Of a stretch of 64,000 bases of DNA, positions 9,050 through 52,795 are shown piece after piece. This stretch comes from Eledone cirrhosa. Taxonomy: Eukaryota. The position numbers were made by a program, and so were the translations under genes. Where the stretch lies: positions 16,120,001-16,184,000 of the forward strand of contig OZ024745.1 in the NCBI GenBank assembly GCA_964016885.1, in the 5' to 3' direction. Under the pieces are notes generated by a model. That model did no database searches and had not been told where the DNA came from. It was given only the letters and a program-made list of their open reading frames with translations. The first letter of the stretch is position 1. Each line of letters starts with the position of its first letter.

Positions 9050-9447
9050 TCTCTCTCTTGGTTGTCCATCGTAAACGATGATGACATCTTTTTCATTGTT
9101 GTTCCCAGCCGCCGTGGGTGCGAAGGTGGCTGTGGAGGCCGATCCTTGACTTGCAGGTCCGGGGACAGTGGGGGCAGGGGAAGAGACCGGAGTCGCTTGG
9201 GGCAGCTGCTAATGCCTTTCTCCTCCTTTCACGGGCCTCAGTGACCTCTGCCCGTCTCTTCTCTTCAAAAGAGTCTTTGGCGCGTCTGGTAAGGGCTCGC
9301 CACTCAGTCCTGTCCTGAGCATGGGACTCGAGTCGTTTTGGGGCGATTCCAGTATTGTTGATGCTGGACTTCACACAGTCTTTGAACCTCTTGAGAGGCC
9401 TGCCTTGCTTTCGTTTCCCCGAACAGAGTTCCCCATATATCAGTTGT
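9050..9447 (-). mobile_element. 3' fragment of an RTE-clade LINE with C-terminal C2H2 zinc finger
   Basis: QLIYGELCSGKRKQGRPLKRFKDCVK...AQDRTEWR...FPCPHCPRTCKSRIGLHSHLRTH is the typical RTE/BovB-like C-terminus; short 3' UTR ending in GA repeats. Confidence 0.9.
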
Positions 9448-9722
9448 TCTATAGGTGGAATTATTTATCTCAAAGTGTACGTGACTAGAATTTCGAATTC
9501 TATCTTCCTGTGATATTTCTACAAACGTTAAGCCACTAACATCAATATATAGAATTTACACGGGGGACTTGAATTGCTAAAAATAGCAGCCAAATCACTA
9601 CAATTTAGAGGCGAATGGGAATTTAAGATAATGTTGACAGGAAGGTACAGGCTGGAATACATTTGATCATAAGATTTCTAGACCAGGATCATAGTTATTG
9701 TCAATATATGCTGCCCTCTGGA

Positions 9723-16649: not shown

Positions 16650-17280
<631 letters not shown>

Positions 17281-17459: not shown

Positions 17460-17670
17460 AATATGGTTTTATATATATAGTTTCCATTTATTTAATATCA
17501 TTGATATATATATATATATATATATTGTTATACTTTGGGAGGGTCATGTTGCCAATAAGAAACACACGCACCAGTTGCTTTCACTTCAATTTATTATAAT
17601 AAATTTATAAATTTAGGAATTTATAAATTTCCGGTTGGTTCCACAACCAGATGATTGTTTATATATTGTC

Positions 17671-18165
17671 AAATTTAGAAGGGCCCTAGATAAACATAAA
17701 CTCAATATTAAGATAGTAGAAAGACCAGGTACCTCCATAAAAACACTTATTAGCAATACATACCCTTTTCAAAGACCTCCCTGTATAGATAAGAAATGTA
17801 TAATCTGTAAATTAAGCCCCCATATTAACTGTAAAACTAGAAATGTAGTATATAACATAAGATGCACTGAAGGACAATGTAGAGATAAGAATATAGTGTA
17901 CATAGGTGAGACAGATCGTAGTGTAGGGGAACGGATAAATGAACACTGGCGAGACCTTGAAGATAGTAAAGAATCATCTGTACTCTACCAACATGCTAAA
18001 ATAGAACATAAGGGTAAATTAGAAAACATAGAAATAAAAATAGAATCTACACACAGAAAAGACGCAATGTTTAGACAAATCACAGAGGCAATAAACATAA
18101 ATGAACTCCAACCAAAATTAAATAGAAAACATGAGTGGAACAGCAACATCACAACTTACAATTAA
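17671..18165 (+). pseudogene. PLE GIY-YIG endonuclease domain with Cys-rich linker (N-terminally truncated)
   Basis: CIDKKCIIC...CKTRNVVYNIRC...C...VYIGETDRSVGERINEH...H...RQITEAINI..LQPKLN; the listed ORF start at 17635 lies in the inverted arm and is fortuitous. Confidence 0.9.
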
Positions 18166-18362
18166 GGACAAAATGAAAACACACACACATAGAACAAACA
18201 ACCAACCAGTAAAATGTAAATAAACAAATAAATAAACAAATATAAACACACACAGACACCCGGATGTAACACATGCACAAACTAAGCACACAACACATAC
18301 AAAAACAAGATGGCTACGGACAGAACAAAGGAGAGGCACAAAAACAAAGAAAAGAAGTCCCA

Positions 18363-18405
18363 GTCACTGAAGAGGTCACATAATGAGTGACGAAAGAACT
18401 TTGAC
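18363..18405 (+). ncRNA. Minimal type-I hammerhead motif in the 3' pLTR
   Basis: GTCA CTGAAGA G GTCAC ATAATGA GTGAC GAA AGAACT T TGAC; predicted cleavage between 18401 and 18402. Confidence 0.8.
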
Positions 18406-18629
18406 AATATATAAACAACCATCTGGTTGTGGAATCAACCAACCAACCGGAAATTTATAAATTCCTAAATTGATAAATTTATTATAATAAATTGAAGTGA
18501 AGGCAACTGGTGCGTGTGTTTCTTATTGGCAACATGACCCTCCCAAAGTATAACAATATCGGTTTCAACACACGTTTTCAGATAAAGATTCTTGCTAAAC
18601 AAATTCAGAAACGATATATATATATATAC

Positions 18630-18681
<52 letters not shown>

Positions 18682-18817
18682 AGTGTAATTTTCTACACAA
18701 AACGAAGGTTATAGAGAAAATTGAGGTTGGTAATGGCACATGGAATATATAAGAGACAGAATACTTTTTTGTGAAAAAACATAATTTTATAAGGTAAGGA
18801 AATAATAAAGGGTATAA

Positions 18818-18865
18818 AAAATGACCGGTTTCGATGGGTCTGCAAAAGCGATCTTTTCAAATGTT
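18818..18865 (-). ncRNA. Hammerhead motif, U3-A8 core variant (3' pLTR copy)
   Basis: AACAT TTGAAAA GATCG...CCATC GAA ACCGGT C ATTTT. Confidence 0.7.
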
Positions 18866-19135
18866 GATTAATATTAAGAAAAATTAATAATACGAAGAGT
18901 TAAAATTTGAGACTTGAAAATTCAAGTATAAAATTCATTGTGGGATTTCATAGCAGTTTTCATCTAGGTAGCAACAACAGGTTGACTGCTGTGTCCCTTT
19001 CTGGTAGTGAATGAGAAGTTATTTGGGGTGTGGGTTATTTTATAAAGGTCAGATTTAGCAATCGCCAGCTGCTGGTCAGTGAGGGGGTGGAAGCAATATA
19101 CACACACATATCTTCCTGTGATGGGTAGGAGAGTG

Positions 19136-19166
<31 letters not shown>

Positions 19167-19336
19167 CCCCACACATACATACACACACACATATATATAT
19201 ACATACACACATACAAACATCCACACACACACACACACACATATATATACACACATACACACACATATATATATACACACACACACACACACGCATATAT
19301 ATATATATATACACATACGCATACATCCAGATACCC

Positions 19337-19377
<41 letters not shown>

Positions 19378-19778
19378 CAATACATACATCCACATGCACA
19401 CACATACTCACACACACACACACACACATACATACACCCACACACAGAGAAATGGCCCTCAAATATATATATATATATATACATACAGACATATATTTTT
19501 TCCATAATATAAGAAGTTGGGGCAGTGAAATTAAAATACAAGTCATTCTGATCACATTGAGTTCTTCATGTAGATTGGGCCCCGCAACCGACAGTGGTGA
19601 ATTCTGTGTGCGCATATATATATAGATATATGTGTGTGCACGTGCAGGGTTTAACATGGATGTGTTGGTCACACAAAGGCATGGTCTGTCAATGAATAAA
19701 CCTGATTCTACAGAATTGGTCTCTGGTCTTTAATAGTAGTGATTCCGTGCGTATGTGTGTTTATATTTTATGACAATT

Positions 19779-20497
19779 CTATTGGGGTGATAACCCGTTT
19801 AGTTTTGGTTTAAATTTGTTAAGGAATAGATTTTCTTTGTTTATTCTTTGTTGTTGTGTGAACGAATCTGAGCACTTGTAGAAGGGGAAGATTTTAAAGT
19901 TGGGTAGTGTCATTCCTGCGCAGTTCGCAATATGGCTGCTCAAGGGGATTTTTCTTGTGTTAGCGTCCCGGATTTGTTGGCGGTGGATGGTCATTCTTTT
20001 GCGTAATGAGGTGCCCGTCTGTCCTATGTAGTTGTGTTTGCACCCACCGCAAGTTATTGCGTAAATCAAGTTCTCCGAGTTGCAGGTGAAATTGTTTTTT
20101 ACTGTAAATGTTTGGCCATCTTTGAATGTAAATGTTTGTCCTTCAGTGAGGTAGAGGCACGTTCCACAGTTTGTTCTACCACATTTGGTAACTGTAGGGT
20201 TGAGGATTGGTTTGGGTATATTTGGTCCAGTGAGAATGCGTTTAAGTGATTTGGGTTGTCTTTTACTTTTAAGGATCTTGTGTGTTTCAAGAATAGACTT
20301 CATTTTTACATCTTTAAGTAGGATGGGGAGGTTTTTGTGTAGGTGATCAAACATTTCGGTATTTCTGGGGTTGAAAGTGGATACATATGGCAGGGTGTTG
20401 AGTGTGGTTTTCTGTTTTGGATTGTTAAGTTGATGGGGATTTAGGTGTTTTGCCCTGTCTATTCCATTGTTGATTATTTCAAGTGGAAAGGCTCTTA
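19779..20497 (-). pseudogene. PLE linker + GIY-YIG endonuclease, uninterrupted frame, N-terminally truncated
   Basis: Frame extends upstream of the listed Met (RAFPLEIINNGIDRAK...LPYVSTFNP); KRQPKSLK, CGRTNCGTC, FTCNSENLIYAITCGGCKHNYIGQT..LRKRMTIH, E...PKLN. Confidence 0.9.
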
Positions 20498-20779
20498 TAT
20501 ATATATATACACTCTCCTACCCATCACAGGAAGATATGTGTGTGTATATTGCTTCCACCCCCTCACTGACCAGCAGCTGGCGATTGCTAAATCTGACCTT
20601 TATAAAATAACCCACACCCCAAATAACTTCTCATTCACTACCAGAAAGGGACACAGCAGTCAACCTGTTGTTGCTACCTAGATGAAAACTGCTATGAAAT
20701 CCCACAATGAATTTTATACTTGAATTTTCAAGTCTCAAATTTTAACTCTTCGTATTATTAATTTTTCTTAATATTAATC

Positions 20780-20827
20780 AACATTTGAAAAGATGGCTTT
20801 TGCAGACCCATCGAAACCGGTCATTTT
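20780..20827 (+). ncRNA. Hammerhead motif, U3-A8 core variant (inverted pLTR copy)
   Basis: AACAT TTGAAAA GATGG CTTTTGCAGAC CCATC GAA ACCGGT C ATTTT; 5-bp stem II, palindromic stem III, GUC cleavage triplet. Confidence 0.75.
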
Positions 20828-21087
20828 TTATACCCTTTATTATTTCCTTACCTTATAAAATTATGTTTTTTCACAAAAAAGTATTCTGTCTCTTATATAT
20901 TCCATGTGCCATTACCAACCTCAATTTTCTCTCTCTCTCTATATATATATATATATAAATATGTCTATATATATATATATATATATACATACGTGTGTGT
21001 GTACACCTGGAAAGGAAATTCCATGTGAACGTGTCAAAAAGTTGAAATGAAAAGGGGGACGAATGTATAAAGTTGTATGAATAAACC

Positions 21088-30600: not shown

Positions 30601-33600
30601 GTGATGTGGTTGTGAGTTTAAAGGTGATGTGGTTGTGAGGTGAAAGGTGATGTGGTTGTGAGTTGAAAGGTGGTGTGGTTGTGAGTTGAAAAGTGGTGTG
30701 GTTGTGAGGTGAAAGGTGATGTGGTTGTGAGTTGAAAGGTGGTGTGGTTGTGAGTTGAAAGGTGATGTGGTTGTGAGTTGAAAGGTGATGTGGTTGTGAG
30801 TTTAAAGGTGGTGTGGTTGTGAGTTGAAAGGTGATGTGGTTGTTAGTTGAAAGGTGATGTGGTTGTAAGTTGAAAGGTGGTGTGGTTGTGTGTTGAAAGG
30901 TGATGTGGTTGTGAGTTTAAAGGTGGTGTGGTTGTGAGTTGAAAGGTGGTGTGGTTGTGAGTTGAAAGGTGTTGTGGTTGTGAGTTGAAAGGTGGTGTGG
31001 TTGTGAGTTGAAAGGTGGTGTGGTTGTGATTTGAAAGGTGGTGTGGTTGTGAGTTGAAAGGTGGTGTGGTTGTGAGTGTTGAAAGGTGGTGTGGTTGTGA
31101 GTTGAAAGGTGGTGTGGTTGTGAGTTGAAAGGTGGTGTGGTTGTGAGTGTTGAAAGGTGGTGTGGTTGTGAGTTGAAAGGTGGTGTGGTTGTGAGTTGAA
31201 AGGTGGTGTGGTTGTGAGTGTTGAAAGGTGGTGTGTTTGTGAGTTGAAAGGTGGTGTGGTTGTGAGTGTTGAAAGGTGGTGTGGTTGTGAGTTGAAAGGT
31301 GGTGTGGTTGTGAGTTGAAAGGTGGTGTGGTTGTGAGTTGAAAGGTGGTGTGGTTGTGAGTTGAAAGGTGGTGTGGTTGTAAGTGTTGAAAGGTGGTGTG
31401 GTTGTGAGTTGAAAGGTGATGTGGTTGTGAGTTGAAAGGTGAAGTGGTTGTGAGTGTTGAAAGGTGGTGTGGTTGTGAGTTGAAAGGGGGTGTGGTTGTG
31501 AGTTGAAAGGTGATGTGGTTGTGAGTTGAAAGGTGGTGTGGTTGTGAGTGTTGAAAGGTGGTAGGGTTGTGAGTTGAAAGGTGGTGTGGTTGTGAGTGTT
31601 GACAGATGGTGTGGTTGTGAGTTGAAAGGTGATGTGGTTGTGAATTGAAAGGTGATGTGGTTGTGAGTTGAAAGGTGGTGTGGTTTTGAGTTGAAAGGTG
31701 GTGTGGTTGTGAGTTGAAAGGTGGTGTGGTTGTGAGTTGAAAGGTGATGTGGTTGTGAGTTGAAAGGTGGTGTGGTTGTGAGTTGAAAGGTGGTGTGGTT
31801 GTGAGTTGAAAGGTGTTGTGGTTGTGAGTTGAAAGGTGGTGTGGTTGTGTGTTGAAAGGTGATGTGGTTGTGAGTTGAAAGGTGGTGTGGTTGTGAGTTG
31901 AAAGGTGGTGTGGTTGTGAGTTGAAGGTGGTGTGGTTGTGAGTTGAAAGGTGATGTGGTTGTGAGTTGAAAGGTGGTGTGGTTGTGAGTTGAAAGGTGGT
32001 GTGGTTGTGAGTTGAAAGGTGTTGTGGTTGTGAGTTGAAAGGTGGTGTGGTTGTGAGTTGAAAGGTGTTGTGGTTGTGAGTTGAAAGGTGGTGTGGTTGT
32101 GAGTTGAAAGGTGATGTGGTTGTGAGTTGAAAGGTGATGTGGTTGTGAGTTGAAAGGTGGTGTGGTTGTAAGTTGAAAGGTGATGTGGTTGTGAGTGTTG
32201 AAAGGTGGTGTGGTTGTGTGTTGAAAGGTGGTGTGCTTGTGAGTTGAAAAGTGGTGTGGTTGTGAGGTGAAAGGTGGTGTGGTTGTGAGTTGAAAGGTGG
32301 TGTGGTTGTGAGTTGTAAGGTGATGTGGTTGTGAGTTGAAAGGTGGTGTGGTTGTGAGTTTAAAGGTGATGTGGTTGTGAGTTTAAAGGTGATGTGGTTG
32401 TGAGTTGAAAGGTGGTGTGGTTGTGAGTTGAAAGGTGATGTGGTTGTGAGTTGAAAGGTGATGTGGTTGTGAGTTGAAAGGTGATGTGGTTGTGAGTTGA
32501 AAGGTCGTGTCGTTGTGAGTTGAAAGGTGGTGTGGTTGTGAGTTGAAAGGTGATGTTGTTGTGAGTTGAAAGGTGGTGTGGTTGTGAGTTGAAAGGTGGT
32601 GTGGTTGTGAGTTGAAAGGTGGTGCGGTTGTGAGTTGAAAGGTGGTGTGGTTGTGAGTTGAAAGGTGATGTGGTTGCGAGTTTAAAGGTGATGTGGTTGT
32701 GAGTTGAAAGGTGATGTGGTTGTGAGTTGAAAGGTGGTGTCGTTGTGAGTTGAAAGGTTGTGTGGTTGTGAGTTGAAAGGTGATGTGGTTGTGAGTTGAA
32801 AGGTGGTGTGGTTGTGAGTTGAAATGTGGTGTGGTTGTCAGTTGAAAGGTGATGTGGTTGTGAGTTGAAAGGTGGTGTGGTTGTGAGTTGAAAGGTGGTG
32901 TGGTTGTGAGTTGAAAGGTGGTGTGGTTGTGAGTTGAAAGGTGATGTGGTTGTGAGTTGAAAGGTGGTGTGGTTGTGAGTTGAAAGGTGGTGTGGTTGTG
33001 AGTTGAAAGGTGATGTGGTTGTGAGTTGAAAGGTGATGTGGTTGTCAGTTGAAAGGTGATGTGGTTGTGAGTTGAAAGGTGGTGTGGTTGTGAGTTGAAA
33101 GGTGGTGTGGTTGTGAGTTGAAAGGTGATGTGGTTGTGAGTTGAAAGGTGGTGTGGTTGTCAGTTGAAAGGTGATGTGGTTGTGAGTTGAAAGGTGGTGT
33201 GGTTGTGAGTTGAAAGGTGGTGTGGTTGTGAGTTGAAAGGTGATGTGGTTGTGAGTTGAAAGGTGGTGTGGTTGTGAGTTGAAAGGTTGTGTGGTTGTGA
33301 GTTGAAAGGTGATGTGGTTGTGAGTTGAAAGGTGGTGTGGTTGTGAGGTGAAAGGTGATGTGGTTGTGAGTGTTGAAAGGTGGTGTGGTTGTGAGGTGAA
33401 AGGTGGTGTGGTTGTGAGTTGAAAGGTGGTGTGGTTGTGAGTGTTGAAAGGTGGTGTGGTTGTGAGTTGAAAGGTGGTGTGGTTGTGAGTGTTGAAAGGT
33501 GGTGTGGTTGTGTGTTGAAAGGTGGTGTGGTTGTGAGTTGAAAGGTGGTGTGGTTGTGAGTTGAAAGGTGATGTGGTTGTGTGTTGAAAGGTGGTGTGGT

Positions 33601-36600
33601 TGTGAGTTGATAGGTGGTGTGGTTGTGAGTTGAAAGGTGATGTGGTTGTGAGTTGAAAGGTGATGTGGTTGTGAGTTGAAAGGTGGTGTGCTTGTGAGTT
33701 GAAAAGTGGTGTGGTTGTGATTCGAAAGGTGGTGTGGTTGTGAGTTGAAAGGTCATGTGGTTGTGAGTTGAAAGGTGATGTGGTTGTGAGTTGAAAGGTG
33801 ATGTGGTTGTGTGTTGAAAGGTGGTGTGGTTGTGAGTTGATAGGTGGTGTGGTTGTGAGTTGAAAGGTGATGTGGTTGTGAGTTGAAAGGTGATGTGGTT
33901 GTGTGTTGAAAGGTGGTGTGGTTGTGAGTTGATAGGTGGTGTGGTTGTGAGTTGAAAGGTGATGTGGTTGTGAGTTGAAAGGTGATGTGGTTGTGTGTTG
34001 AAAGGTGGTGTGCTTGTGAGTTGAAAAGTGGTGTGGTTGTGATTCGAAAGGTAGTGTGGTTGTGAGTTGAAAGGTGATGTGGTTGTGAGTTGAAAGGTGA
34101 TGTGGTTGTGAGTTGAAAGGTGATGTGGTTGTGTGTTGAAAGGTGGTGTGGTTGTGAGTTGATAGGTGGTGTGGTTGTGAGTTGAAAGGTGATGTGGTTG
34201 TGAGTTGAAAGGTGATGTGGTTGTGTGTTGAAAGGTGGTGTGGTTGTGAGTTGATAGGTGGTGTGGTTGTGAGTTGAAAGGTGGTGTGGTTGTGTGTTGA
34301 AAGGTGATGTGGTTGTGAGTTGAAAGGTGATGTGGTTGTGAGTTGAAAGGTGGTGTGGTTGTGAGTTGAAAGGTGATGTGGTTGTGAGTTGAAAGGTGGT
34401 GTGGTTGTGAGTTGAAAGGTGGTGTGGTTGTGAGTTTGAAGGTGATGTGGTTGTGAGTTGAAAGGTGATGTGGTTGTGAGTTGAAAGCTGGTGTGGTTGT
34501 GAGTTTAAAGGTGGTGTGGTTGTGTGTTGAAAGGTGATGTGGTTGTAAGTTGAAAGGTGATGTGGTTGTGAGTTGAAAGGTGGTGTGGTTGTGAGTTTAA
34601 AGGTGGTGTCGTTGTGAGTTGAAAAGTGGTGTGGTTGTGAGTTGAAAGGTGATGTGGTTGTGAGTTGAAAGGTGATGTGGTTGTGAGTTTAACGGTGATG
34701 TGGTTGTGAGGTGAAAGGTGGTGTGGTTGTCAGTTGAAAGGTGATGTGGTTGTGAGTTGAAAGGTGGTGTGGTTGTGAGTTGAAAGGTGGTGTGGTTGTG
34801 AGTTGAAAGGTGATGTGGTTGTGAGTTGAAAGGTGGTGTGGTTGTGAGTTGAAAGGTTGTGTGGTTGTGAGTTGAAAGGTGATGTGGTTGTGAGTTGAAA
34901 GGTGGTGTGGTTGTGAGGTGAAAGGTGATGTGGTTGTGAGTGTTGAAAGGTGGTGTGGTTGTGAGTTGAAAGGTGGTGTGGTTGTGAGTTGAAAGGTGGT
35001 GTGGTTGTGAGTGTTGAAAGGTGGTGTGGTTGTGAGTTGAAAGGTGGTGTGGTTGTGAGTGTTGAAAGGTGGTGTGGTTGTGTGTTGAAAGGTGGTGTGG
35101 TTGTGAGTTGAAAGGTGGTGTGGTTGTGAGTTGAAAGGTGATGTGGTTGTGTGTTGAAAGGTGGTGTGGTTGTGAGTTGATAGGTGGTGTGGTTGTGAGT
35201 TGAAAGGTGATGTGGTTGTGAGTTGAAAGGTGATGTGGTTGTGAGTTGAAAGGTGGTGTGCTTGTGAGTTGAAAAGTGGTGTGGTTGTGATTCGAAAGGT
35301 GGTGTGGTTGTGAGTTGAAAGGTGATGTGGTTGTGAGTTGAAAGGTGATGTGGTTGTGAGTTGAAAGGTGATGTGGTTGTGTGTTGAAAGGTGGTGTGGT
35401 TGTGAGTTGATAGGTGGTGTGGTTGTGAGTTGAAAGGTGATGTGGTTGTGAGTTGAAAGGTGATGTGGTTGTGTGTTGAAAGGTGGTGTGGTTGTGAGTT
35501 GATAGGTGGTGTGGTTGTGAGTTGAAAGGTGATGTGGTTGTGAGTTGAAAGGTGATGTGGTTGTGTGTTGAAAGGTGGTGTGCTTGTGAGTTGAAAAGTG
35601 GTGTGGTTGTGATTCGAAAGGTGGTGTGGTTGTGAGTTGAAAGGTGATGTGGTTGTGAGTTGAAAGGTGATGTGGTTGTGAGTTGAAAGGTGATGTGGTT
35701 GTGTGTTGAAAGGTGGTGTGGTTGTGAGTTGATAGGTGGTGTGGTTGTGAGTTGAAAGGTGATGTGGTTGTGAGTTGAAAGGTGATGTGGTTGTGTGTTG
35801 AAAGGTGGTGTGGTTGTGAGTTGATAGGTGGTGTGGTTGTGAGTTGAAAGGTGGTGTGGTTGTGTGTTGAAAGGTGATGTGGTTGTGAGTTGAAAGGTGA
35901 TGTGGTTGTGAGTTGAAAGGTGGTGTGGTTGTGAGTTGAAAGGTGATGTGGTTATGAGTTGAAAGGTGGTGTGGTTGTGAGTTGAAAGGTGGTGTGGTTG
36001 TGAGTTTAAAGGTGATGTGGTTGTGAGTTGAAAGGTGATGTGGTTGTGAGTTGAAAGGTGGTGTGGTTGTGAGTTTAAAGGTGGTGTGGTTGTGTGTTGA
36101 AAGGTGATGTGGTTGTGAGTTGAAAGGTGATGTGGTTGTGAGTTGAAAGGTGGTGTGGTTGTGAGTTTAAAGGTGGTGTCGTTGTGAGTTGAAAAGTGGT
36201 GTGGTTGTGAGGTGAAAGGTGATGTGGTTGTGAGTTGAAAGGTGATGTGGTTGTGAGTTTAAAGGTGATGTGGTTGTGAGGTGAAAGGTGATGTGGTTGT
36301 GAGTTGAAAGGTGGTGTGGTTGTGAGTTGAAAAGTGGTGTGGTTGTGAGGTTAAAAGGTGATGTGGTTGTGAGTTGAAAGGTGGTGTGGTTGTGAGTTGA
36401 AAGGTGATGTGGTTGTGAGTTGAAAGGTGATGTGGTTGTGAGTTTAAAGGTGGTGTGGTTGTGAGTTGAAAGGTGATGTGGTTGTTAGTTGAAAGGTGAT
36501 GTGGTTGTAAGTTGAAAGGTGGTGTGGTTGTGTGTTGAAAGGTGATGTGGTTGTGAGTTTAAAGGTGGTGTGGTTGTGAGTTGAAAGGTGGTGTGGTTGT

Positions 36601-39600
36601 GAGTTGAAAGGTGTTGTGGTTGTGAGTTGAAAGGTGGTGTGGTTGTGAGTTGAAAGGTGGTGTGGTTGTGATTTGAAAGGTGGTGTGGTTGTGAGTTGAA
36701 AGGTGGTGTGGTTGTGAGTGTTGAAAGGTGGTGTGGTTGTGAGTTGAAAGGTGGTGTGGTTGTGAGTTGAAAGGTGGTGTGGTTGTGAGTGTTGAAAGGT
36801 GGTGTGGTTGTGAGTTGAAAGGTGGTGTGGTTGTGAGTTGAAAGGTGGTGTGGTTGTGAGTGTTGAAAGGTGGTGTGTTTGTGAGTTGAAAGGTGGTGTG
36901 GTTGTGAGTGTTGAAAGGTGGTGTGGTTGTGAGTTGAAAGGTGGTGTGGTTGTGAGTTGAAAGGTGGTGTGGTTGTGAGTTGAAAGGTGGTGTGGTTGTG
37001 AGTTGAAAGGTGGTGTGGTTGTAAGTGTTGAAAGGTGGTGTGGTTGTGAGTTGAAAGGTGATGTGGTTGTGAGATGAAAGGTGAAGTGGTTGTGAGTGTT
37101 GAAAGGTGGTGTGGTTGTGAGTTGAAAGGGGGTGTGGTTGTGAGTTGAAAGGTGATGTGGTTGTGAGTTGAAAGGTGGTGTGGTTGTGAGTGTTGAAAGG
37201 TGGTAGGGTTGTGAGTTGAAAGGTGGTGTGGTTGTGAGTGTTGACAGATGGTGTGGTTGTGAGTTGAAAGGTGATGTGGTTGTGAATTGAAAGGTGATGT
37301 GGTTGTGAGTTGAAAGGTGGTGTGGTTTTGAGTTGAAAGGTGGTGTGGTTGTGAGTTGAAAGGTGGTGTGGTTGTGAGTTGAAAGGTGATGTGGTTGTGA
37401 GTTGAAAGGTGGTGTGGTTGTGAGTTGAAAGGTGGTGTGGTTGTGAGTTGAAAGGTGTTGTGGTTGTGAGTTGAAAGGTGGTGTGGTTGTGTGTTGAAAG
37501 GTGATGTGGTTGTGAGTTGAAAGGTGGTGTGGTTGTGAGTTGAAAGGTGGTGTGGTTGTGAGTTGAAGGTGGTGTGGTTGTGAGTTGAAAGGTGATGTGG
37601 TTGTGAGTTGAAAGGTGGTGTGGTTGTGAGTTGAAAGGTGGTGTGGTTGTGAGTTGAAAGGTGTTGTGGTTGTGAGTTGAAAGGTGGTGTGGTTGTGAGT
37701 TGAAAGGTGTTGTGGTTGTGAGTTGAAAGGTGGTGTGGTTGTGAGTTGAAAGGTGATGTGGTTGTGAGTTGAAAGGTGATGTGGTTGTGAGTTGAAAGGT
37801 GGTGTGGTTGTAAGTTGAAAGGTGATGTGGTTGTGAGTGTTGAAAGGTGGTGTGGTTGTGTGTTGAAAGGTGGTGTGCTTGTGAGTTGAAAAGTGGTGTG
37901 GTTGTGAGGTGAAAGGTGGTGTGGTTGTGAGTTGAAAGGTGGTGTGGTTGTGAGTTGTAAGGTGATGTGGTTGTGAGTTGAAAGGTGGTGTGGTTGTGAG
38001 TTGAAAGGTGGTGTGGTTGTGAGTTGAAAGGTGATGTGGTTGTGAGTGTTGAAAGGTGATGTGGTTGTGAGTTGAAAGGTGGTGTGGTTGTGAGTGTTGA
38101 AAGGTGGTGTGGTTGTGAGTTGAAAGGTGGTGTGGTTGTGAGTGTTGAAAGGTGGTGTGGTTGTGAGTTGAAAGGTGATGTGGTTGTGAGTTGAAAGGTG
38201 ATGTGGTTGTGAGTGTTGAAAGGTGGTGTGGTTGTGAGTTGAAAGGTGGTGTGGTTGTGAGTGTTGAAAGGTGATGTGGTTGTGAGTTGAAAGGTGGTGT
38301 GGTTGTGAGTGTTGAAAGGTGGTGTGGTTGTGAGTTGAAAGGTGGTGTGGTTGTGAGTGTTGAAAGGTGGTGTGGTTGTGAGTTGAAAGGGGGTGTGGTT
38401 GTGAGTTGAAAGGTGATGTGGTTGTGAGTTGAAAGGTGGTGTAGTTGTGAGTGTTGACAGATGGTGGGGTTGTGAGTTGAAAGGTGATGTGGTTGTGAGT
38501 GTTGAAAGGTGGTGGGGTTGTGAGTTGAAAGGTGGTGTGGTTGTGAGTGTTGACAGATGGTGTGGTTGTGAGTTGAAAGGTGATGTGGTTGTGAGTTGAA
38601 AGGTGATGTGGTTGTGAATTGAAAGGTGGTGTGGTTGTGAGTTGAAAGGTGGTGTCGTTGTGAGTTGAAAGGTGGTGTGGTTGTGAGTTGAAAGGTGGTG
38701 TGGTTGTGAGTTTAAAGGGGATGTGGTTGTGACTTTAAAGGTGATGTGGTTGTGAGTTGAAAGGTGGTGTGGTTGTGAGTTGAAAGGTGATGTGGTTGTG
38801 AGTGTTGACAGATGGTGGGGTTGTGAGTTGAAAGGTGATGTGGTTGTGAGTGTTGAACGGTGGTGTGGTTGTGAGTTTAAAGGTGATGTGGTTGTGAGTT
38901 TAAAGGTTATGTGGTTGTGAGTTGAAAGGTGATGTGGTTGTGAGTTGATAGGTGGTGTGGTTGTGAGTTTAAAGGTGATGTGGTTGTGAGTTTAAAGGTT
39001 ATGTGGTTGTGAGTTGAAAGGTGATGTGGTTGTGAGTTGAAAGGTGGTGTGGTTGTGTGTTGAAAGGTGATGTGGTTGTGAGTTGAAAGGTGGTGTGGTT
39101 GTGAGTTGAAAGGTGGTGTGGTTGTGAGTTGAAAGGTGGTGTGGTTGTGAGTTGAAAGTTGATGTGGTTGTGAGTTGAAAGGTGGTGTGGTTGTGAGTTG
39201 AAAGGTGGTGTGGTTGTGAGTTGAAAGATGGTGTGGTTGTGAGTTGAAAGGTGGTGTGGTTGTGAGTTGAAAGGTGGTGTGGTTGTGAGTTGAAAGGTGG
39301 TGTGGTTGTGAGTTGAATGATGGTGTGGTTGTGAGTTGAAAGGTGGTGTGGTTGTGAGTTGAAAGGTGGTGTGGTTGTGAGTTGAAAGGTGGTGTGGTTG
39401 TGAGTTGAAAGGTGGTGTGGTCGTGAGTTGAAAGGTGATGTGGTTGTGAGTTGAAAGGTGGTGTGGTTGTGAGTTGAAAGGTGGTGTCGTTGTGAGTTGA
39501 AAGGTGGTGTGGTTGTGAGTTGAAAGGTGGTGTGGTTGTGAGTTTAAAGGGGATGTGGTTGTGACTTTAAAGGTGATGTGGTTGTGAGTTGAAAGGTGGT

Positions 39601-42600
39601 GTGGTTGTGAGTTGAAAGGTGATGTGGTTGTGAGTGTTGACAGATGGTGGGGTTGTGAGTTGAAAGGTGATGTGGTTGTGAGTGTTGAAAGGTGGTGTGG
39701 TTGTGAGTTTAAAGGTGATGTGGTTGTGAGTTTAAAGGTTATGTGGTTGTGAGTTGAAAGGTGATGTGGTTGTGAGTTGATAGGTGGTGTGGTTGTGAGT
39801 TTAAAGGTGATGTGGTTGTGAGTTTAAAGGTTATGTGGTTGTGAGTTGAAAGGTGATGTGGTTGTGAGTTGAAAGGTGGTGTGGTTGTGTGTTGAAAGGT
39901 GATGTGGTTGTGAGTTGAAAGGTGGTGTGGTTGTGAGTTGAAAGGTGGTGTGGTTGTGAGTTGAAAGGTGGTGTGGTTGTGAGTTGAAAGTTGATGTGGT
40001 TGTGAGTTGAAAGGTGGTGTGGTTGTGAGTTGAAAGGTGGTGTGGTTGTGAGTTGAAAGATGGTGTGGTTGTGAGTTGAAAGGTGGTGTGGTTGTGAGTT
40101 GAAAGGTGGTGTGGGCGTGAGTTGAAAGGTGATGTGGTTGTGAGTTGAAGAGTGATGTGGTTGTGAGTTGAAAGGTGATGTGGTTGTGAGTTGAAAGGTG
40201 GTGTGGTTGTGAGTTGAAAGGTGATGTGGTTGTGAGTTGAAAGGTGATGTGGTTGTGAGTTGAAAGGTGGTGTGGTTGTGAGTTGAAAGGTGGTGTGGTT
40301 GTGAGTTGAAAGGTGATGTGGTTGTGAGTTGAAAGGTGGTGTGGTTGTGAGTTGAAAGGTGGTGTGGTTGTGAGTTTAAAGGTGGTGTGGTTGTTATTTT
40401 AAAGGTGGTGTGGTTGTGAATTGAAAGGTGTTGTGGTTGTGAGCTGAAAGGTGTTGTGGTTGTGAGTTTAAAGGTGATGTGGTTGTGAGTTGAAAGGTGA
40501 TGTGGTTGTGAGTGTTGAAAGGTGGTGGGGTTGTGAGTTGAAAGGTGGTGTGGTTGTGAGTGTTGACAGATGGTGTGGTTGTGAGTTGAAAGGTGATGTG
40601 GTTGTGAATTGAAAGTTGGTGTGGTTGTGAGTTGAAAGGTGGTGTCGTTGTGAGTTGAAAGGTGGTGTGGTTGTGAGTTGAAAGTGGTGTGGTTGTGAGT
40701 TGAAAGGTGGTGTGGTTGTGAGTTGAAAGGTGATGTGGTTGTGAGTTGAAAGGTGGTGTGGTTGTGAGTTGAAAGGTGGTGTGGCTGTGAGTTGAAAGGT
40801 GGTGTGGTTGTGAGTTGAAAGGTGATGTGGTTGTGAGTTGAAAGGTGGTGTGGTTGTGAGTTGAAAGGTGATGTGGTTGTGAGTTGAAAGGTGGTGTGGT
40901 TGTGAGTTGAAAGGTGGTGTGGTTGTGAGTTGAAAGGTGGTGTGGTTGTGAGTTTAAAGGGGATGTGGTTGTGACTTTAAAGGTGATGTGGTTCTGAGTT
41001 TAAAGGTTGTGTGGTTGTGAGTTGAAAGGTGATGTGGTTGTGAGTTGAAAGGTGGTGTGGTTGTGAGTTGAAAGGTTGTGTGGTTGTGAGTGTTGACAGA
41101 TGGTGGGGTTGTGAGTTGAAAGGTGATGTGGTTGTGAGTGTTGAAAGGTGGTTTGGTTGTGAGTTTAAAGGTGATGTGGTTGTGAGTTTAAAGGTGGTGT
41201 GGTTGGGAGTTGAAAAGCGGTGTGGTTGTGAGTTGAAAGGTGATGTGGTTGTGAGTTGAAGAGTGATGTGGTTGTGAGTTGAAAGGTGATGTGGTTGTGA
41301 GTTGAAAGGTGGTGTGGTTGTGAGTTGAAAGGTGGTGTGGTTGTGAGTTTAAAGGTGATGTGGTTGTGAGTTTAAAGGTGATGTGGTTGTGAGTTGAAAG
41401 GTGATGTGGTTGTGAGTTGAAAGGTGGTGTGGTTGTGAGTTGAAAGGTGATGTGGTTGTGAGTTGAAAGGTGGTGTGGTTGTGAGTTGAAAGGTGGTGTG
41501 GTTGTGAGTTTAAAGGTGATGTGGTTGTGAGTTTAAAGGTGATGTGGTTGTGAGTTGAAAGGTGGTGTGGTTGTGAGTTGAAAGGTGGTGTGGTTGTGAG
41601 TTGAAAGGTGATGTGGTTGTGAGTTGAAAGGTGATGTGGTTGTGAGTTGAAAGGTGATGTGGTTGTGAGTTGAAAGGTGGTGTGGTTGTGAGTTGAAAGG
41701 TGATGTGGTTGTGAGTTGAAAGGTGGTGTAGTTGTGAGTTGAAAGGTGGTGTTGTTGTGAGTTGAAAGGTGGTGTGGTTGTGAGTTGAAAGGTGGTGTGG
41801 TTGTGAGTTGAAAGGTGGTGTGGTTGTGAATTGAAAGGTGATGTGGTTGTGAGTTTAAAGGTGGTGTGGTTGTGATTTTAAAGGTGGTGTGGTTGTGAAT
41901 TGAAAGGTGTTGTGGTTGTGAGCTGAAAGGTGGTGTGGTTGTGAGTTGAAAGGTGGTGTGGTTGTGAGTTGAAAGGTGATGTGGTTGTGAGTTTAAAGGT
42001 GGTGTGGTTGTGAGTTTAAAGGTGATGTGGTTGTGAGTTGAAAGGTGATGTGGTTGTGAGTTGAAAGGTGTTGTGGTTGTGAGTTGAACGGTGTTGTGGT
42101 TGTGAGTTGAAAGGTGGTGGGGTTGTGAGTTTAAAGGTGGTGTGGTTGTGAGTTGAAAGGGGGTGTGGTTGTGAGTTGAAAGCTGTTGTGGTTGTGAGTG
42201 TTGAAAGGTGGTGTGGTTGTGTGTTGAAAGGTGGTGTGGTTGTGAGTGTTGAAAGGTGATGTGGTTGTGAGTTGAAAGGTGATGTGGTTGTGAGTTGAAA
42301 GGTGATGTGGTTGTGAGTTGAAAGGTGATGTGGTTGTGAGTTTAAATGTGGTGTGGTTGTGAGTTTAAAGGTGATGTGGTTGTGAGTTTAAAGGTGATGT
42401 GGTTGTGAGTTGAAAGGTGGTGTGGTTGTGAGTTGAAAGGTGGTGTGGTTGTGAGTTGAAAGGTGATGTGGTTGTGAGTTGAAAGGTGGTGTAGTTGTGA
42501 GTTGAAAGGTGGTGTGGTTGTGAGTTGAAAGGTGATGTGGTTGTGAGTTGAAAGGTGGTGTGGTTGTGAGTTGAAAGGTGATGTGGTTGTGAGTTGAAAG

Positions 42601-42800
42601 GTGGTGTAGTTGTGAGTTGAAAGGTGGTGTTGTTGTGAGTTGAAAGGTGGTGTGGTTGTGAGTTGAAGGTGGTGTTATTGTGAGTTGAAAGGTGATGTGG
42701 TTGTGAGTTGAAAGGTGGTGTGGTTGTGAGTTGAAAGGTGATGTGGTTGTGAGTTGAAAGGGGGTGTGGTTGTGAGTTGAAAGGTGGTGTGGTTGTGAGA
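24657..42800. repeat. 18-kb satellite array, 23-bp unit GTGGTTGTGAGTTGAAAGGTG(G/A)T, roughly 790 copies
   Basis: Directly visible and uninterrupted; near absence of C on the + strand; recurring 25-bp variant units (GAGTGTTGAAA). Confidence 0.98.
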
Positions 42801-43317
42801 GTTGAAGTGACCGAAGTCGATGACTTCAGGGTGGAGTTTTAGATAAATATCATTTCATGCAGCAAGAGATAAGATCAAAGATATTTTGGAAAGCAGCTTA
42901 AACAGATTTATTTAGGAGAGGGAGACTTTGATCCAAACAGAATAACCGGAACTATTTGTCTCAGACGTACAAGTAACAGAAGCAGATCAGTAATGGAGAA
43001 AGTGGAATCAACATGGACCGAGGCATCACCTTCACACACTACTCCATTAGACTGGACCGGAAGTTGTTAGAAAAGAGGAAGGAGAATTTTCTAACAGGTT
43101 TTATTTTAAGTTTTACCGACTAGAAAAGTTTAGACGGTGAAGGAAAATCATGCGGTTATGATAATTTCTTGTCTGAAGCCTGGTCCAAATACCTGCAATA
43201 GAGCAATAGAGCAAACTCCGTTATCCATGGGTCGGGATAGTGGTACTACACGAATTGGTGTGATATTCTTACTCTCTCCTACAAGATGAGGGTGACTTCT
43301 ACACGAGATAAATAATG

Positions 43318-47029: not shown

Positions 47030-47115
<86 letters not shown>

Positions 47116-47246
47116 GTGAGGTTTTTTTTACAAAATGAAAAATAACCGAGGTGTCCTACACGAGTGAAAGCATAAAGAAAAAGAGATGAAATCGAAAATG
47201 CAACTGGAGTCTTATTTAAAAAAAATATATATATATTTATTTGGTT

Positions 47247-47284
47247 CCTTTACCGGTTTCCCAGTTCTTCTGCTTTTCAAAAGG
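47247..47284 (-). ncRNA. 38-nt minimal hammerhead motif, U3-A8 core variant
   Basis: CCTT TTGAAAA GCAG AAGAA CTGG GAA ACCGGT A AAGG; perfect stem I; G.G mismatch at the base of stem II in this copy. Confidence 0.75.
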
Positions 47285-48159
47285 TGAGTTGAGATGGAGG
47301 GTCTGTGGTTTTTCTCACATCTGGTTGGTCTCTGAATGTTACTTATTTTATATGGAAAAAGTGGCTCGAAATGCCAGGTTTTTCGAGAAGTAATTTGATT
47401 GGTTTGTCAATAATTATAATAAATTTCGCGCCAGTTCGCGTTACAATAGTTCTTCAAATAAGAGGGGGGAGGGGTTTTCACAGGTTGTTTTTTCATATAT
47501 GAGTGTTTGAATTTTTTTACTTGAAAAAAGGGGGCTCACGAAGGCTTTTTTTTGGTTGGTTATAAATGAAATTATGGCTGTCACGTGAACAAGTTTTCAT
47601 TAAATATTCGTGCCCTTATTTGGAAATCCATTCTGTAGCCTTTTTAGAGAATTTTATGATAAGTGAAAGATAATGGTCAAGAGAAAGGGATGGAAGAATT
47701 GTTCTGGTTCAGTGAATATGGTTAGTTCGCTGGGGTGTCAGAATTCAGATTTTCTATTGAATAAAGAAAGTAAAGATATGTATGTTTATTTGTGTGCTTG
47801 TGTGTGTGCGTGCGTGTGTGTGTGTGTGTGTTGTGTGTGTGTGTGTTTGAATTTCTTTACTTTAAAAAAAGGTGGCTCACGAAGGCTTTTTTTTAATAAA
47901 GGTGATTTGATTGGTTATAAATGAAATTTGGCTGTCACGTGAACAAGTTTTCATTACATTTTTGCGCCCTTATTTGGAAATCTATTCTGTAGCCTTTATA
48001 GAGAATGTTATGACAATGAAAAGATAGTGGTCAAGAGAAATGGGTTTGGGAGAATTGTTCTGATTCAGTGAATATGGTTAGTTCGCTGTGGTGTCAGAGT
48101 TCAGATTTTCTATTGAAGTGAAGATATGTATGTTTATTTGTGTGCTTGTGTGTGTGTGT

Positions 48160-48215
<56 letters not shown>

Positions 48216-48482
48216 TGGAAGATGATTCTATTAGTAGAAATGGGGGAGGGAGTTGTGTGTGTGTGTATATGGGTGTCATGTATGTGTGTGCGAGTATGTT
48301 AAGATGGAGAGAATATATATTTTGTGTGTGTGTATATATGTGTGTAGGAAAGTGGTTCTATTAGTAGAAATGGGGGTGGGAGTTGTGGGTGTTGTTATGT
48401 GTGTGTATGGGTGTTATGTGTGTGGGAGTATGGTTAGCATGTTAAGATGAAGAGGATATATATATATATATATATATATTGT

Positions 48483-48514
<32 letters not shown>

Positions 48515-48705
48515 AGGAAAATGATTCCTTTAGTAGGAATATTTTTGAATGAACATATTTTCCTTACTTATTCGTATTTGTTCTGTTGTATTGTCAGTGC
48601 AAACGTATGTTAAGGTTTATTTAGTTCGGGTTTTTATTTTCTAAAGTAGGTGTTATGTGTGTGTGTGTGTGTGTATGTCATATTATGGTGTTGACACAAT
48701 GTATA

Positions 48706-50350
48706 TTAAACCATATTTAATGTTGGTGTATATTTTTGAATAAACATATTTTCCTTATTTATTCGTATTTGTTCTGTTGTATTGTTAGCGCAAAGGTAAA
48801 ATGGGAAGACTTGGAATTTGGGTGTCTTATTACTTGCGCAAATGTCTAGATGTGCACTTAGTGGTATCTGTCTCGTGGTTGGATCTCGTAATTGTTGGCG
48901 ATGAACTGTCATTCTGTTTCTGAGTGTGAGTTTAGTTTGTCCTATATAATCTTCATTGCATCCTTTACATTTAATGGCATAAATTAGGTTTTTTGATGAG
49001 CAAGTGAAGTGATTTTTTACAGTAAAATTTTGTCCTGATTTAAATGTATACGTGTTGCCTTCAATGAGGTGAGTGCAGGTTCCACAATTAGAGCGACCAC
49101 ATTTTTTGGTACTTGGTTGTGGGTTTGTGGTAGGTAATTTAGCATTGGTGAGTAATGTTTTCAGTGATTTTGGTTGTCTTTTTGCTTTTGATTATTTTGT
49201 GTGTTTCAAGGGCTTTTTTCATTCTTGGGTTTTGTTTTAGTAGTGGGATGTTATTGTGTATAGTGTTGTAAGCTTCCGCATTTCTTGGGTTGTGTGTTGA
49301 GATATATGATAGAATATTGGACGTACCTTGAATTTGTTTCTGTTTCCGTAATTCATCAATGCCTATTGCTTTAGCCCTCTCTATTCCATTATTTATTAGT
49401 AATAGTGGGTACTCTCTCTTGAGTAGAATTTCCTTTAATTCTTGAAGTCTTTTATTTAGCGCTTCATAATTGGAGACAATTGTGCAAATTCTTCTTGCTA
49501 GGTTAAAAGGAATGTTCGTCTTCGTGTGCTTTGGATGGTTGGAGGTGAATAGCAGATATTGTTTGGAATCTGTTGGTTTGTAGTGTATGTCAGTTTCGAT
49601 ATTTGTGTCTTTTTTTAAGATTAAGATGTCCAGAAATGGGAGTTGATCTTGGCTGTATTCCACTGTGAATTGGATGTGGTTATTGATGCCGTTTATTAAG
49701 TTTTTGAAATCCTTCAGTTGGTCGAGTGTGTGGGACCAAAGAATGAGGCAATCATCCAAGTAGCGTTTCCAATTCTCTGATAAATATTTGTGGAAGTTCA
49801 ATCCGTATTTTGATTTGGACTGTTCATATATCTGGACTTCTAAGTATGCCATGACTAAGTTGGCATAAGTTGGAGCGGCTTTTGTACCCATCGCAGTCCC
49901 CGATATTTGCTTGTAAGTATTGCCATCGAAATCAAAAAAGTTGTTCTGTAGGATGAATTTTAATCCCTCGGTGATGAAGCTTTTTTCTATTCTGTCAGGT
50001 ATCTCATTGGGATATTTCTCTAGCCAGAATCCTATTGCTTCTAGTCCGTATTGGTGTGTGATCCTTGTGTAGAGATTCACTACATCGAAAGACACAATAA
50101 TAGTGTCGTTGTTGACATGTTTGGGGAGGTGGTTTAAGAGGTCCAGATCGTCTCTTACAAAGCTTGGTATGTGTTTCACAATTGGTTTCAGTAGTATGTC
50201 TATAAAGTTGCTCAATCTGTGTGTTTCACATTGTGGGCCCGCTACAATTGGTCTTAATTTAAAGTCTGTGGGGTATTGTGTGCTCACGCAGGCTGAGGTG
50301 GATTGTTTACAGGCATCGTTGATTATTTTACACTTGTGGATCTTCGGAAG
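48706..50350 (-). pseudogene. PLE reverse transcriptase + GIY-YIG endonuclease, single frameshift at ~49180
   Basis: LPKIHK...LRPIVAG...SFDVVNLYT...GTAMGTKAAPTYANL...RYLDD...LPFLD...YKPTD...HPKH. Removing one T from the run at 49179-49183 restores KSKRQPKSLK and joins NLIYAIKCKGCNEDYIGQT...PTLN. Confidence 0.92.
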
Positions 50351-50364
50351 TATATATATATATA

Positions 50365-52243
<1,879 letters not shown>

Positions 52244-52587: not shown

Positions 52588-52795
52588 ATGTGAGAAAAAC
52601 CACAGACCCTCCATCTCAACTCTACTTTTGAAAAGCAGAAGAACTGCGAAACCGGTAAAAGGACCAAATAAATATATATATATTTTTTTAAATAAGACGC
52701 CAGTTGCATTTTCAATTTCATCTTTTTTTCTTTATACTTTCACTTGTGTAGGACACCTCGGTTATTTTTCATTTTGTAAAAAAACCTCATTTTCT

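What the first reader, a model, noticed from the sequence alone, without database searches (positions are those of the whole stretch)
47247..47284. PLE lineage carrying hammerhead ribozymes with a compensatory U3-A8 core (UUGAAAA)
Seen: four motifs (18818-18865, 20780-20827, 47247-47284, 52625-52661) read TTGAAAA-[stem II]-GAA-ACCGGT-H-[stem I]. They belong to two PLE families with clearly homologous proteins but dissimilar pLTRs. Stems differ completely (GATGG/CCATC vs GCAG/CTGC; AACAT/ATTTT vs CCTT/AAGG) while the core and the ACCGGT palindrome are kept. Established: C3 and G8 form a Watson-Crick pair in the active hammerhead, and the U3-A8 double change is a known tolerated natural variant; minimal PLE HHRs use palindromic stem III to act as dimers. 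Inference: this is a selected, clade-specific variant rather than decay, and CUGANGA-based searches would miss it.
Basis: partly seen in the sequence, partly recalled or inferred. Interest (0 to 1): 0.85.

Follow-up and report, generated by a model that had tools for sequence, protein, structure and literature searches.

The report
Penelope retrotransposon hammerhead, U3-A8 core
The motif is a real copy of the small hammerhead-shaped RNA carried by Penelope-like jumping genes, and its swapped U-A core pair is the normal form of several very abundant families in this genome, but the same swap has been in print for such elements since 2014, its cutting is only predicted, and this particular copy is likely crippled.

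Summary
All four motifs are present. U3-A8 is the family norm, not decay: 20,144 genomic matches (control 25), against 141 C3-G8, 228 U3-G8 and 289 C3-A8 with the same GAAACCGGT anchor. At least five families vary in stems and position 7 but keep U3-A8; their RT-endonucleases form one Neptune-like group, and the nearest relatives with a readable motif have C3-G8. In Penelope-like loci from other hosts, 29 of 29 distinct motifs pair at 3-8, so selection holds the pair.

The variant is not confined to one clade: it recurs in distant lineages, including a second family in this genome. It is also published: natural U3-A8 hammerheads (Perreault 2011) and about 1,300 U3-A8 minimal motifs in Schistosoma Penelope elements (Cervera 2014). 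This scan found it earlier in seven reports on other genomes.

The 47247 copy has lost the G10.1-C11.1 pair and is predicted to misfold. No pile-up of copies starts at the cut site. Cleavage is untested. Verdict: new member of a known kind.

The parts
47247..47284 (-). Family A minimal type I hammerhead motif: stem I 5' arm 47284-47281, core UUGAAAA 47280-47274, stem II 47273-47261 with G10.1.G11.1 mismatch, GAA, palindrome ACCGGU 47257-47252, A17 at 47251, predicted cut 47251/47250, stem I 3' arm 47250-47247. This copy is likely inactive.
   Evidence: sequence; folding
47112..48705 (-). Family A 3' UTR and pseudo-LTR; the element ends about 135-140 nt past the predicted cut site, at a (TA)n tract
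   Evidence: match to natural full-length copy L188
48706..49191 (-). Family A GIY-YIG endonuclease with CX4CxxC linker
   Evidence: Pfam GIY-YIG E 6.3e-07
49139..50383 (-). Family A reverse transcriptase, 5'-truncated (homology begins about 50351); frame broken near 49180 in this copy
   Evidence: Pfam RVT_1 E 1.4e-06, just under cut-off; 96-98% identical to genomic copies with open frames of about 775 aa
52588..52800 (+). Second family A pseudo-LTR fragment, opposite strand, with motif at 52625-52661 (intact stem II, 2-bp stem I); probably a separate insertion
18676..20516 (-). Family B 5'-truncated insertion: GIY-YIG frame 19779-20516, 3' UTR, motif at 18818-18865 (one stem II pair broken), end at (TA)n
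   Evidence: 100% identical protein copies with 777-aa frames in the genome
20510..20932 (+). Inverted copy of the family B pseudo-LTR, with motif at 20780-20827
   Evidence: 99.8% identity to 18713-19135
17617..18559 (+). Comparison element: distant PLE family C (endonuclease 26% identical to A and B) with a canonical C3-G8 minimal hammerhead at 18363-18405

Best explanation
The motif is a minimal type I hammerhead motif with a U3-A8 core pair in the pseudo-LTR of a group of Neptune-like Penelope retrotransposons, and it likely cuts its RNA only weakly, as a dimer of two tandem copies and probably with help from the element's protein. Shown: the motif sits about 1 kb after the RT-endonuclease gene and, in tandem units of about 4.7-4.9 kb, about 175 nt before the next start codon. 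U3-A8 is the consensus of families A, B, B2, D, E and F, whose stems, loops and position 7 differ. Position 3-8 is a Watson-Crick pair in every distinct PLE-linked motif found in other hosts. Inferred: one C-G to U-A switch in the ancestor of this group. Selection keeps a pair at 3-8, and U-A is one tolerated state that arose repeatedly. Predicted: a monomer cannot close stem III over CCGG, but two copies on one tandem transcript pair their ACCGGU palindromes into a 6-bp duplex and cut after GUH, trimming multimers to unit length. Inferred: most copying is done on uncut or re-joined RNA, because insertions run through the cut site and end 85-150 nt beyond it. The four window copies lie in opposite-strand pairs and have no same-strand partner of their family. 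The 47247 copy has also lost its first stem II pair, so it is likely inert.
For: Counts with the same anchor: U3-A8 20,144; C3-G8 141 (control 170); U3-G8 228; C3-A8 289. More families 3,835. B-like set 649, with 93 of the first 100 U3-A8, 5 U3-G8, 2 C3-A8, 0 C3-G8. Young families with open 775-777-aa frames. Tandem units. Search blind to positions 3 and 8 on all 119 external loci: 29 distinct sense-strand motifs in 30 loci, 29 of 29 Watson-Crick (22 C-G, 5 U-A, 1 A-U, 1 G-C), permutation mean 17.6, 0 of 20,000 as high; shuffles gave 0-1 motifs per replicate. Tree: 7 own rows in one 100/99 group with 6 homologues of unknown motif; nearest motif-bearing relatives C3-G8. Common family A form: designated dimer -21.1 kcal/mol against dimer minimum -22.5; monomer active fold -0.4 against -7.5. 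Literature: natural U3-A8, stated to be active in vitro (PMC3088659); PLE minimal motifs cut weakly and only as multimers (PMC4209133); a PLE hammerhead needs its protein, is partly rescued by a 3-8 swap, and uncut RNA is the main template (PMC11167929).
Against: No cleavage was measured here. No excess of copies begins at the cut site: among the first 100 of 278 broken-motif copies, 13 broke there, against 5-16 at each of seven neighbouring positions (counted by eye). Stem I has only 2 contiguous bp in families B, D and E, and their designated dimers lie 12-15 kcal/mol above the minimum-energy fold (B -7.9 vs -22.7, D -8.1 vs -20.1). The permutation test is not corrected for relatedness. Six homologues inside the group have no DNA, so a single origin is not shown. 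Two of the 7 own tree rows are single U3-G8 copies labelled by their family.
Confidence: 0.75

Rival explanations
1. The fold is kept as a protein-binding or folding signal in the retrotransposon RNA and no longer cuts.
For: Weak stem I in B, D and E; flat break-point profile at the cut site; insertions cross the cut site; ribozyme mutants did not affect insertion in vitro in another PLE (PMC11167929).
Against: The 3-8 pair that covaries belongs to the active hammerhead conformation (PMC3088659). H17 was A, C or U right after the ACCGGT anchor in nearly all family copies inspected, although the genome patterns did not require it. The related PLE ribozyme does cut when its protein is present.
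Confidence: 0.12
2. U-A was positively favoured in this lineage because a slower ribozyme leaves more uncut template, helping these families spread.
For: U3-A8 is fixed across families whose proteins are only about 55% identical, and these families are abundant and young. A second distant family here also has U3-A8.
Against: C3-G8 motifs are at least as successful in the same genome: 42,464 matches with ACUAGU, 98 of the first 100 C3-G8, and family C has many copies. Both changes (C to T, G to A) follow ordinary mutation bias in a 37% G+C window. No rate was measured.
Confidence: 0.1
3. The copies are random decay of a CUGANGA consensus.
For: The window copies do carry private damage, at 11.1 (47247) and in stem II (18818).
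Against: U3-A8 outnumbers C3-G8 about 140 to 1 with this anchor, and C3-G8 is at control level. Full-length copies with open frames carry U3-A8.
Confidence: 0.02

Closest known systems
U3-A8 minimal hammerheads of Cercyon Penelope-like elements in Schistosoma mansoni (Cervera and De la Pena 2014, PMC4209133; text parts 1-2 of 4 read, figures and supplements not seen)
   Same: Type I minimal motif in the pLTR, U3-A8 core, short stem I, many solo copies, opposite-strand pairs close together, predicted dimer action.
   Different: About 15 times more copies here (20,144 vs about 1,300). Stem III is a 6-nt palindrome. Stem II is 4-5 bp rather than 7-8. Families A and B lack the extra base between 9 and 10.1. 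The host element is Neptune-like.
PLE hammerheads with a small palindromic helix III (Drosophila, rotifer, shrimp and mosquito; same paper)
   Same: Small palindromic stem III; stem I as short as 2 bp.
   Different: U3-A8 is not stated for them in the text read.
Natural core variants of Perreault et al. 2011 (PMC3088659; passages and section 8 read)
   Same: Natural U3-A8 covariation; a U10.1-U11.1 mismatch, as seen here in families D and F.
   Different: The section read does not tie them to PLEs.
PAc Poseidon hammerhead of Anolis (Frangieh et al. 2024, PMC11167929; parts 1-2 of 4 read)
   Same: pLTR ribozyme; insertions end downstream of it; A+T-rich targets; no sign of ends at the cut site.
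   Different: C3-G8 core, Poseidon clade, ribozyme overlaps the start codon. Here the motif lies about 175 nt upstream of ORF1, and 3' ends fall at TA steps of the element's own tail.

Membership tests
PLE minimal type I hammerhead (Cervera 2014) | Lies in the pseudo-LTR of a PLE, sense to the RT gene | tested here: met
PLE minimal type I hammerhead (Cervera 2014) | Core 3-UGAN-8-A ... GAAA ... UH with paired 3-8 | tested here: met
   U3-A8, the published variant
PLE minimal type I hammerhead (Cervera 2014) | Palindromic stem III region allowing a dimer | tested here: met
   ACCGGU; a 6-bp intermolecular duplex forms in the predicted dimer of the common A form and of D
PLE minimal type I hammerhead (Cervera 2014) | Stem II closed by G10.1-C11.1 | tested here: met
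   Met in the common forms of A and B; not met in the single copy at 47247; U.U, U-A or A-U in D, E and F
PLE minimal type I hammerhead (Cervera 2014) | Unpaired base between positions 9 and 10.1 (a common trait, outside the paper's descriptor) | tested here: not met
   Absent in A and B; present in family C and in many external motifs
PLE minimal type I hammerhead (Cervera 2014) | Self-cleavage after NUH as a dimer | not testable with these tools
   Needs a bench assay; the indirect genomic footprint was flat
Neptune/Nematis EN+ PLE (Craig 2021, PMC8557442) | [quoted passage not shown] | tested here: met
Neptune/Nematis EN+ PLE (Craig 2021, PMC8557442) | CX2-5CxxC linker motif | tested here: met
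   In A and B; a match to the pattern in the last 220 aa of 111 of 111 homologues
Neptune/Nematis EN+ PLE (Craig 2021, PMC8557442) | (TA)n target preference | tested here: met
   Ends of the window copies and of L188 and L232 abut (TA)n or a CT/TA tract
Neptune clade proper | RT groups with named Neptune references rather than Nematis | not tested
   No named reference sequences were in hand; 'Neptune-like' rests on the linker and the target

The most novel reading that the evidence does not exclude
Core pair and palindrome act together as a lineage code. In this genome ACCGGU goes with U3-A8, ACUAGU with C3-G8 and ACGUACGU with U3-A8. The ACCGGU lineage would thereby avoid cross-pairing with the roughly 42,000 ACUAGU ribozymes, and would run a throttled, protein-gated ribozyme that leaves its template uncut until copying is done.
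Probability: 0.1. Interest if true: 0.55.

Novelty: new member of a known kind. Interest (0 to 1): 0.24.

Why it matters
Modestly. It shows that more than 20,000 ribozyme motifs in one animal genome escape a strict CUGANGA search. It supplies young, intact, tandem elements (family B protein copies are 100% identical) in which the role of the PLE hammerhead, still an open question, could be tested with a natural core variant. It does not add a new ribozyme type or a new association.

Tried and rejected
Rfam: no hammerhead among the 150 listed of 224 window matches, and none in three narrow scans, one of them over the canonical motif. It says nothing about U3-A8.

Sequencing runs: no RNA holder listed; read laying was not used, since contigs cannot show ends.

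Cut-site footprint: flat (first 100 of 278, counted by eye).

A U3-G8 intermediate family: suspected, but only 5 of the first 100 B-like copies. Rejected.

A C3-G8 sister family with ACCGGU in this genome: matches are at control level (141 vs 170). A recurring set among them shows no clear stem II and was not followed up. One A-like copy with CUGAAGA was listed, but the stretch fetched beside it (L246) did not include it.

One clade for all U3-A8 motifs: rejected.

The first tree run timed out and was replaced; two searches were script errors.

Papers not held: Lunse 2017, Przybilski and Hammann 2007 (59), Nelson and Uhlenbeck 2008 (60), Martick and Scott 2006 (62). Only their titles were seen in reference lists. 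They, and the Cervera supplements that I did not open, may hold rates or more U3-A8 PLE examples.

Full report
Observation. The four motifs are in the window as stated. On the minus strand 47284-47247 reads stem I arm CCUU, core UUGAAAA, stem II GCAG/CUGG around AAGAA, GAA, palindrome ACCGGU, A17, stem I arm AAGG. The copy named in the finding has G at 11.1 (3 of the first 100 copies). It is predicted to fold the G12-A15 stretch into a competing hairpin, and its designated dimer lies 10.5 kcal/mol above the dimer minimum, against 1.4 for the common form (secondary-structure energies only).

Surroundings. Family A is a 5'-truncated element at about 47112-50351 (-), with RT (Pfam RVT_1 E 1.4e-06) and GIY-YIG (E 6.3e-07); its frame is broken once in this copy. 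Family B is a 5'-truncated element at about 18676-20516 (-) with an inverted pLTR copy at 20510-20932. A and B proteins are 57% identical at full length, and their pLTRs do not align. Both carry a CX4CxxC linker and end at (TA)n, the traits given for Neptune-type elements in Craig 2021 (PMC8557442; passages and Introduction read). No named Neptune reference was tested. A third, distant PLE (family C, 17617-18559) has a canonical CUGAAGA motif at 18363-18405. The host was not determined; one partial hit to an Octopus protein and hits from bivalve symbiont assemblies suggest a mollusc (inference).

Norm or decay. In the 3.0-Gb genome, with the same GAAACCGGT anchor: UUGAAAA 20,144 (control 25), C3-G8 141 (control 170), U3-G8 228 (control 64), C3-A8 289 (control 42). 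A pattern that excludes the G-started stems finds 3,835 (control 63; it overlaps in part), showing families D, E and F with UUGAUAA, UUGAAAA and UUGACAA. B-like subfamilies with position 7 not A number 649; of the first 100, 93 are U3-A8, 5 U3-G8, 2 C3-A8 and none C3-G8. The free position 7 and the stems thus vary between families while 3 and 8 stay. Families A and B are young: 125 of 125 scored A matches are 96-100% identical, and 150 of 150 scored B matches 99-100%, many with open frames of 775-777 aa (only the best candidates are scored). Full-length copies carry U3-A8.

Covariation. Searches with an alignment of A, B and 28 homologues gave 119 loci from other hosts. A descriptor blind to positions 3 and 8, run on all 119, found 29 distinct sense-strand motifs in 30 loci: 22 C-G, 5 U-A, 1 A-U, 1 G-C, none unpaired. 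The permutation mean was 17.6 and 0 of 20,000 permutations reached 29; relatedness was not corrected. Shuffled loci gave 0-1 motifs per replicate. The antisense strands gave 6 motifs, 5 of them paired.

Clade link. The FastTree run held 67 rows: 12 from this genome, 41 of the 119 external loci (chosen for a called motif or closeness) and 14 of 116 homologues. The IQ-TREE run held 36 of these. The 7 own rows fall in one group (100/99) with 6 homologues that have no DNA; two of these 7 rows are single U3-G8 copies labelled by their family. The four nearest outside loci with a readable motif (41-49% identity) are C3-G8 with 6-nt palindromes, one of them ACCGGU. This fits one switch at the base of the group, but does not prove it. 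U3-A8 also sits at six scattered external rows, and forcing all U3-A8 rows together is rejected (p-AU 1e-129). In this genome a further family with UUGAGAA and an ACGUACGU palindrome has 1,790 matches (97 of the first 100 U3-A8, 3 C3-A8). Its RT aligns only weakly with the tree set (22-36% over short stretches, best E 1e-09), so it is a separate origin. Canonical motifs are also abundant: 42,464 with ACUAGU (control 719), 98 of the first 100 C3-G8, many in tandem arrays of about 466 nt.

Mechanism. In tandem units (B 4.9 kb, A about 4.7 kb) the motif lies about 145-150 nt before an internal ATATATA and about 175 nt before the ORF1 start. Insertions end 85-150 nt past the predicted cut, at TA steps joined to (TA)n, so reverse transcription crossed the cut site on uncut or re-joined RNA (inference). 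For the common A form the dimer is near the minimum-energy fold and the monomer is not. For B and D the designated dimer is 12-15 kcal/mol above the minimum because stem I has 2 contiguous pairs. I looked for copies that begin exactly at the cut site. Of the first 100 of 278 copies with a broken motif, break points were spread evenly: 11, 15, 13 (cut site), 15, 14, 16, 11 and 5 over eight positions (counted by eye). This gives no support for frequent cutting of templates. It matches Frangieh 2024 (PMC11167929, parts 1-2 of 4 read): a PLE hammerhead that cut only with its protein, was partly rescued by a 3-8 swap, was not needed for insertion in vitro and left no read ends at its site. My reading is weak, dimeric, likely protein-assisted cleavage (0.75). 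Rivals are a non-cutting signal (0.12), positive selection for a slower U-A ribozyme (0.10) and decay (0.02). The window copies lie in opposite-strand pairs and are likely inert.

What is known. Cervera and De la Pena 2014 (PMC4209133; parts 1-2 of 4 read, figures and supplements not seen) report minimal hammerheads in PLE pLTRs. They describe a U3-A8 variant in Schistosoma Cercyon elements with about 1,300 hits from a dedicated descriptor, small palindromic helix III forms, and low activity only as multimers. Perreault 2011 (PMC3088659; passages and section 8) reports natural U3-A8, states that it was active in vitro, and notes U10.1-U11.1 mismatches like those in D and F. Also seen: bioRxiv 10.64898/2026.07.22.740005 (part 1 of 5) and passages of PMC6765202, PMC2920678 and PMC7151607, which did not change the reading. 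A search for 'hammerhead' with 'U3-A8' returned only Cervera 2014. A search for 'hammerhead ribozyme', 'octopus' and 'Penelope' returned only Craig 2021. Four relevant papers were not held. Seven earlier reports of this scan describe U3-A8 PLE hammerheads in other genomes, and most call them known (AI notes, not evidence); none exist for this genome.

Verdict. The variant is lineage-linked here but recurrent, and it is already in print for PLEs. New member of a known kind; interest 0.24.

Noticed in passing
L188:3430-3517, L233:5817-5901, L194:1699-1738; external L252, L253, L258, L263: These PLEs have two frames: an ORF1 of about 400-430 aa with no Pfam match overlaps the RT-endonuclease frame by -1, with a U UUU UUA heptamer in the correct frame in families A, B and D and in four external loci. 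All 20 family A loci that held the site kept the T6 run. This is likely a programmed -1 frameshift. Craig 2021's Fig. 1 legend mentions a frameshift after ORF1 in some PLE types (figure not seen); a search for 'Penelope-like' with 'programmed ribosomal frameshift' found nothing.
   Followed up: partly
L299:1969 and L302:117: Natural A3-U8 and G3-C8 cores beside PLE genes from other hosts, so all four Watson-Crick pairs occur at 3-8. One locus each. A search for these terms listed one paper, with G3-C8 once, not read.
   Followed up: partly
L249:4512 (-), L371-L374: Second U3-A8 family in this genome with an 8-nt ACGUACGU palindrome, 1,790 matches, on a very distant PLE with a short cysteine motif before its endonuclease (possibly Hydra-type; label recalled, not tested).
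   Followed up: partly
window 16853-16904 (-): Canonical C3-G8 hammerhead of the ACUAGU type, which forms tandem arrays of about 430-470 nt elsewhere in the genome, like non-LTR retrozymes.
   Followed up: partly
window 17522-18559: Third PLE family (C) with a canonical motif whose stem III (AGAACU) is an imperfect palindrome, and an inverted pLTR fragment at 17522-17676.
   Followed up: partly
L188:2285-2300, L232:5040-5050: Each element carries its own ATATATA about 30 nt before the ORF1 start, and the longest 3' ends stop there against genomic (TA)n, which suggests priming by short RNA-target homology.
   Followed up: partly
genome, one search list: Many family A motifs occur as head-to-head pairs only 50-330 nt apart, short 5'-inverted stubs that would be transcribed into hairpin RNA.
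   Followed up: no
window 25500-42900: About 17 kb of low-complexity tandem repeat that gives long repetitive open frames.
   Followed up: no
window 9093-9464 (-): Frame ending in a weak C2H2 zinc-finger match, resembling the end of an RTE-type LINE (label recalled).
   Followed up: no
window 51181-51734: Tandem array of a 37-nt unit between the two family A pieces.
   Followed up: no
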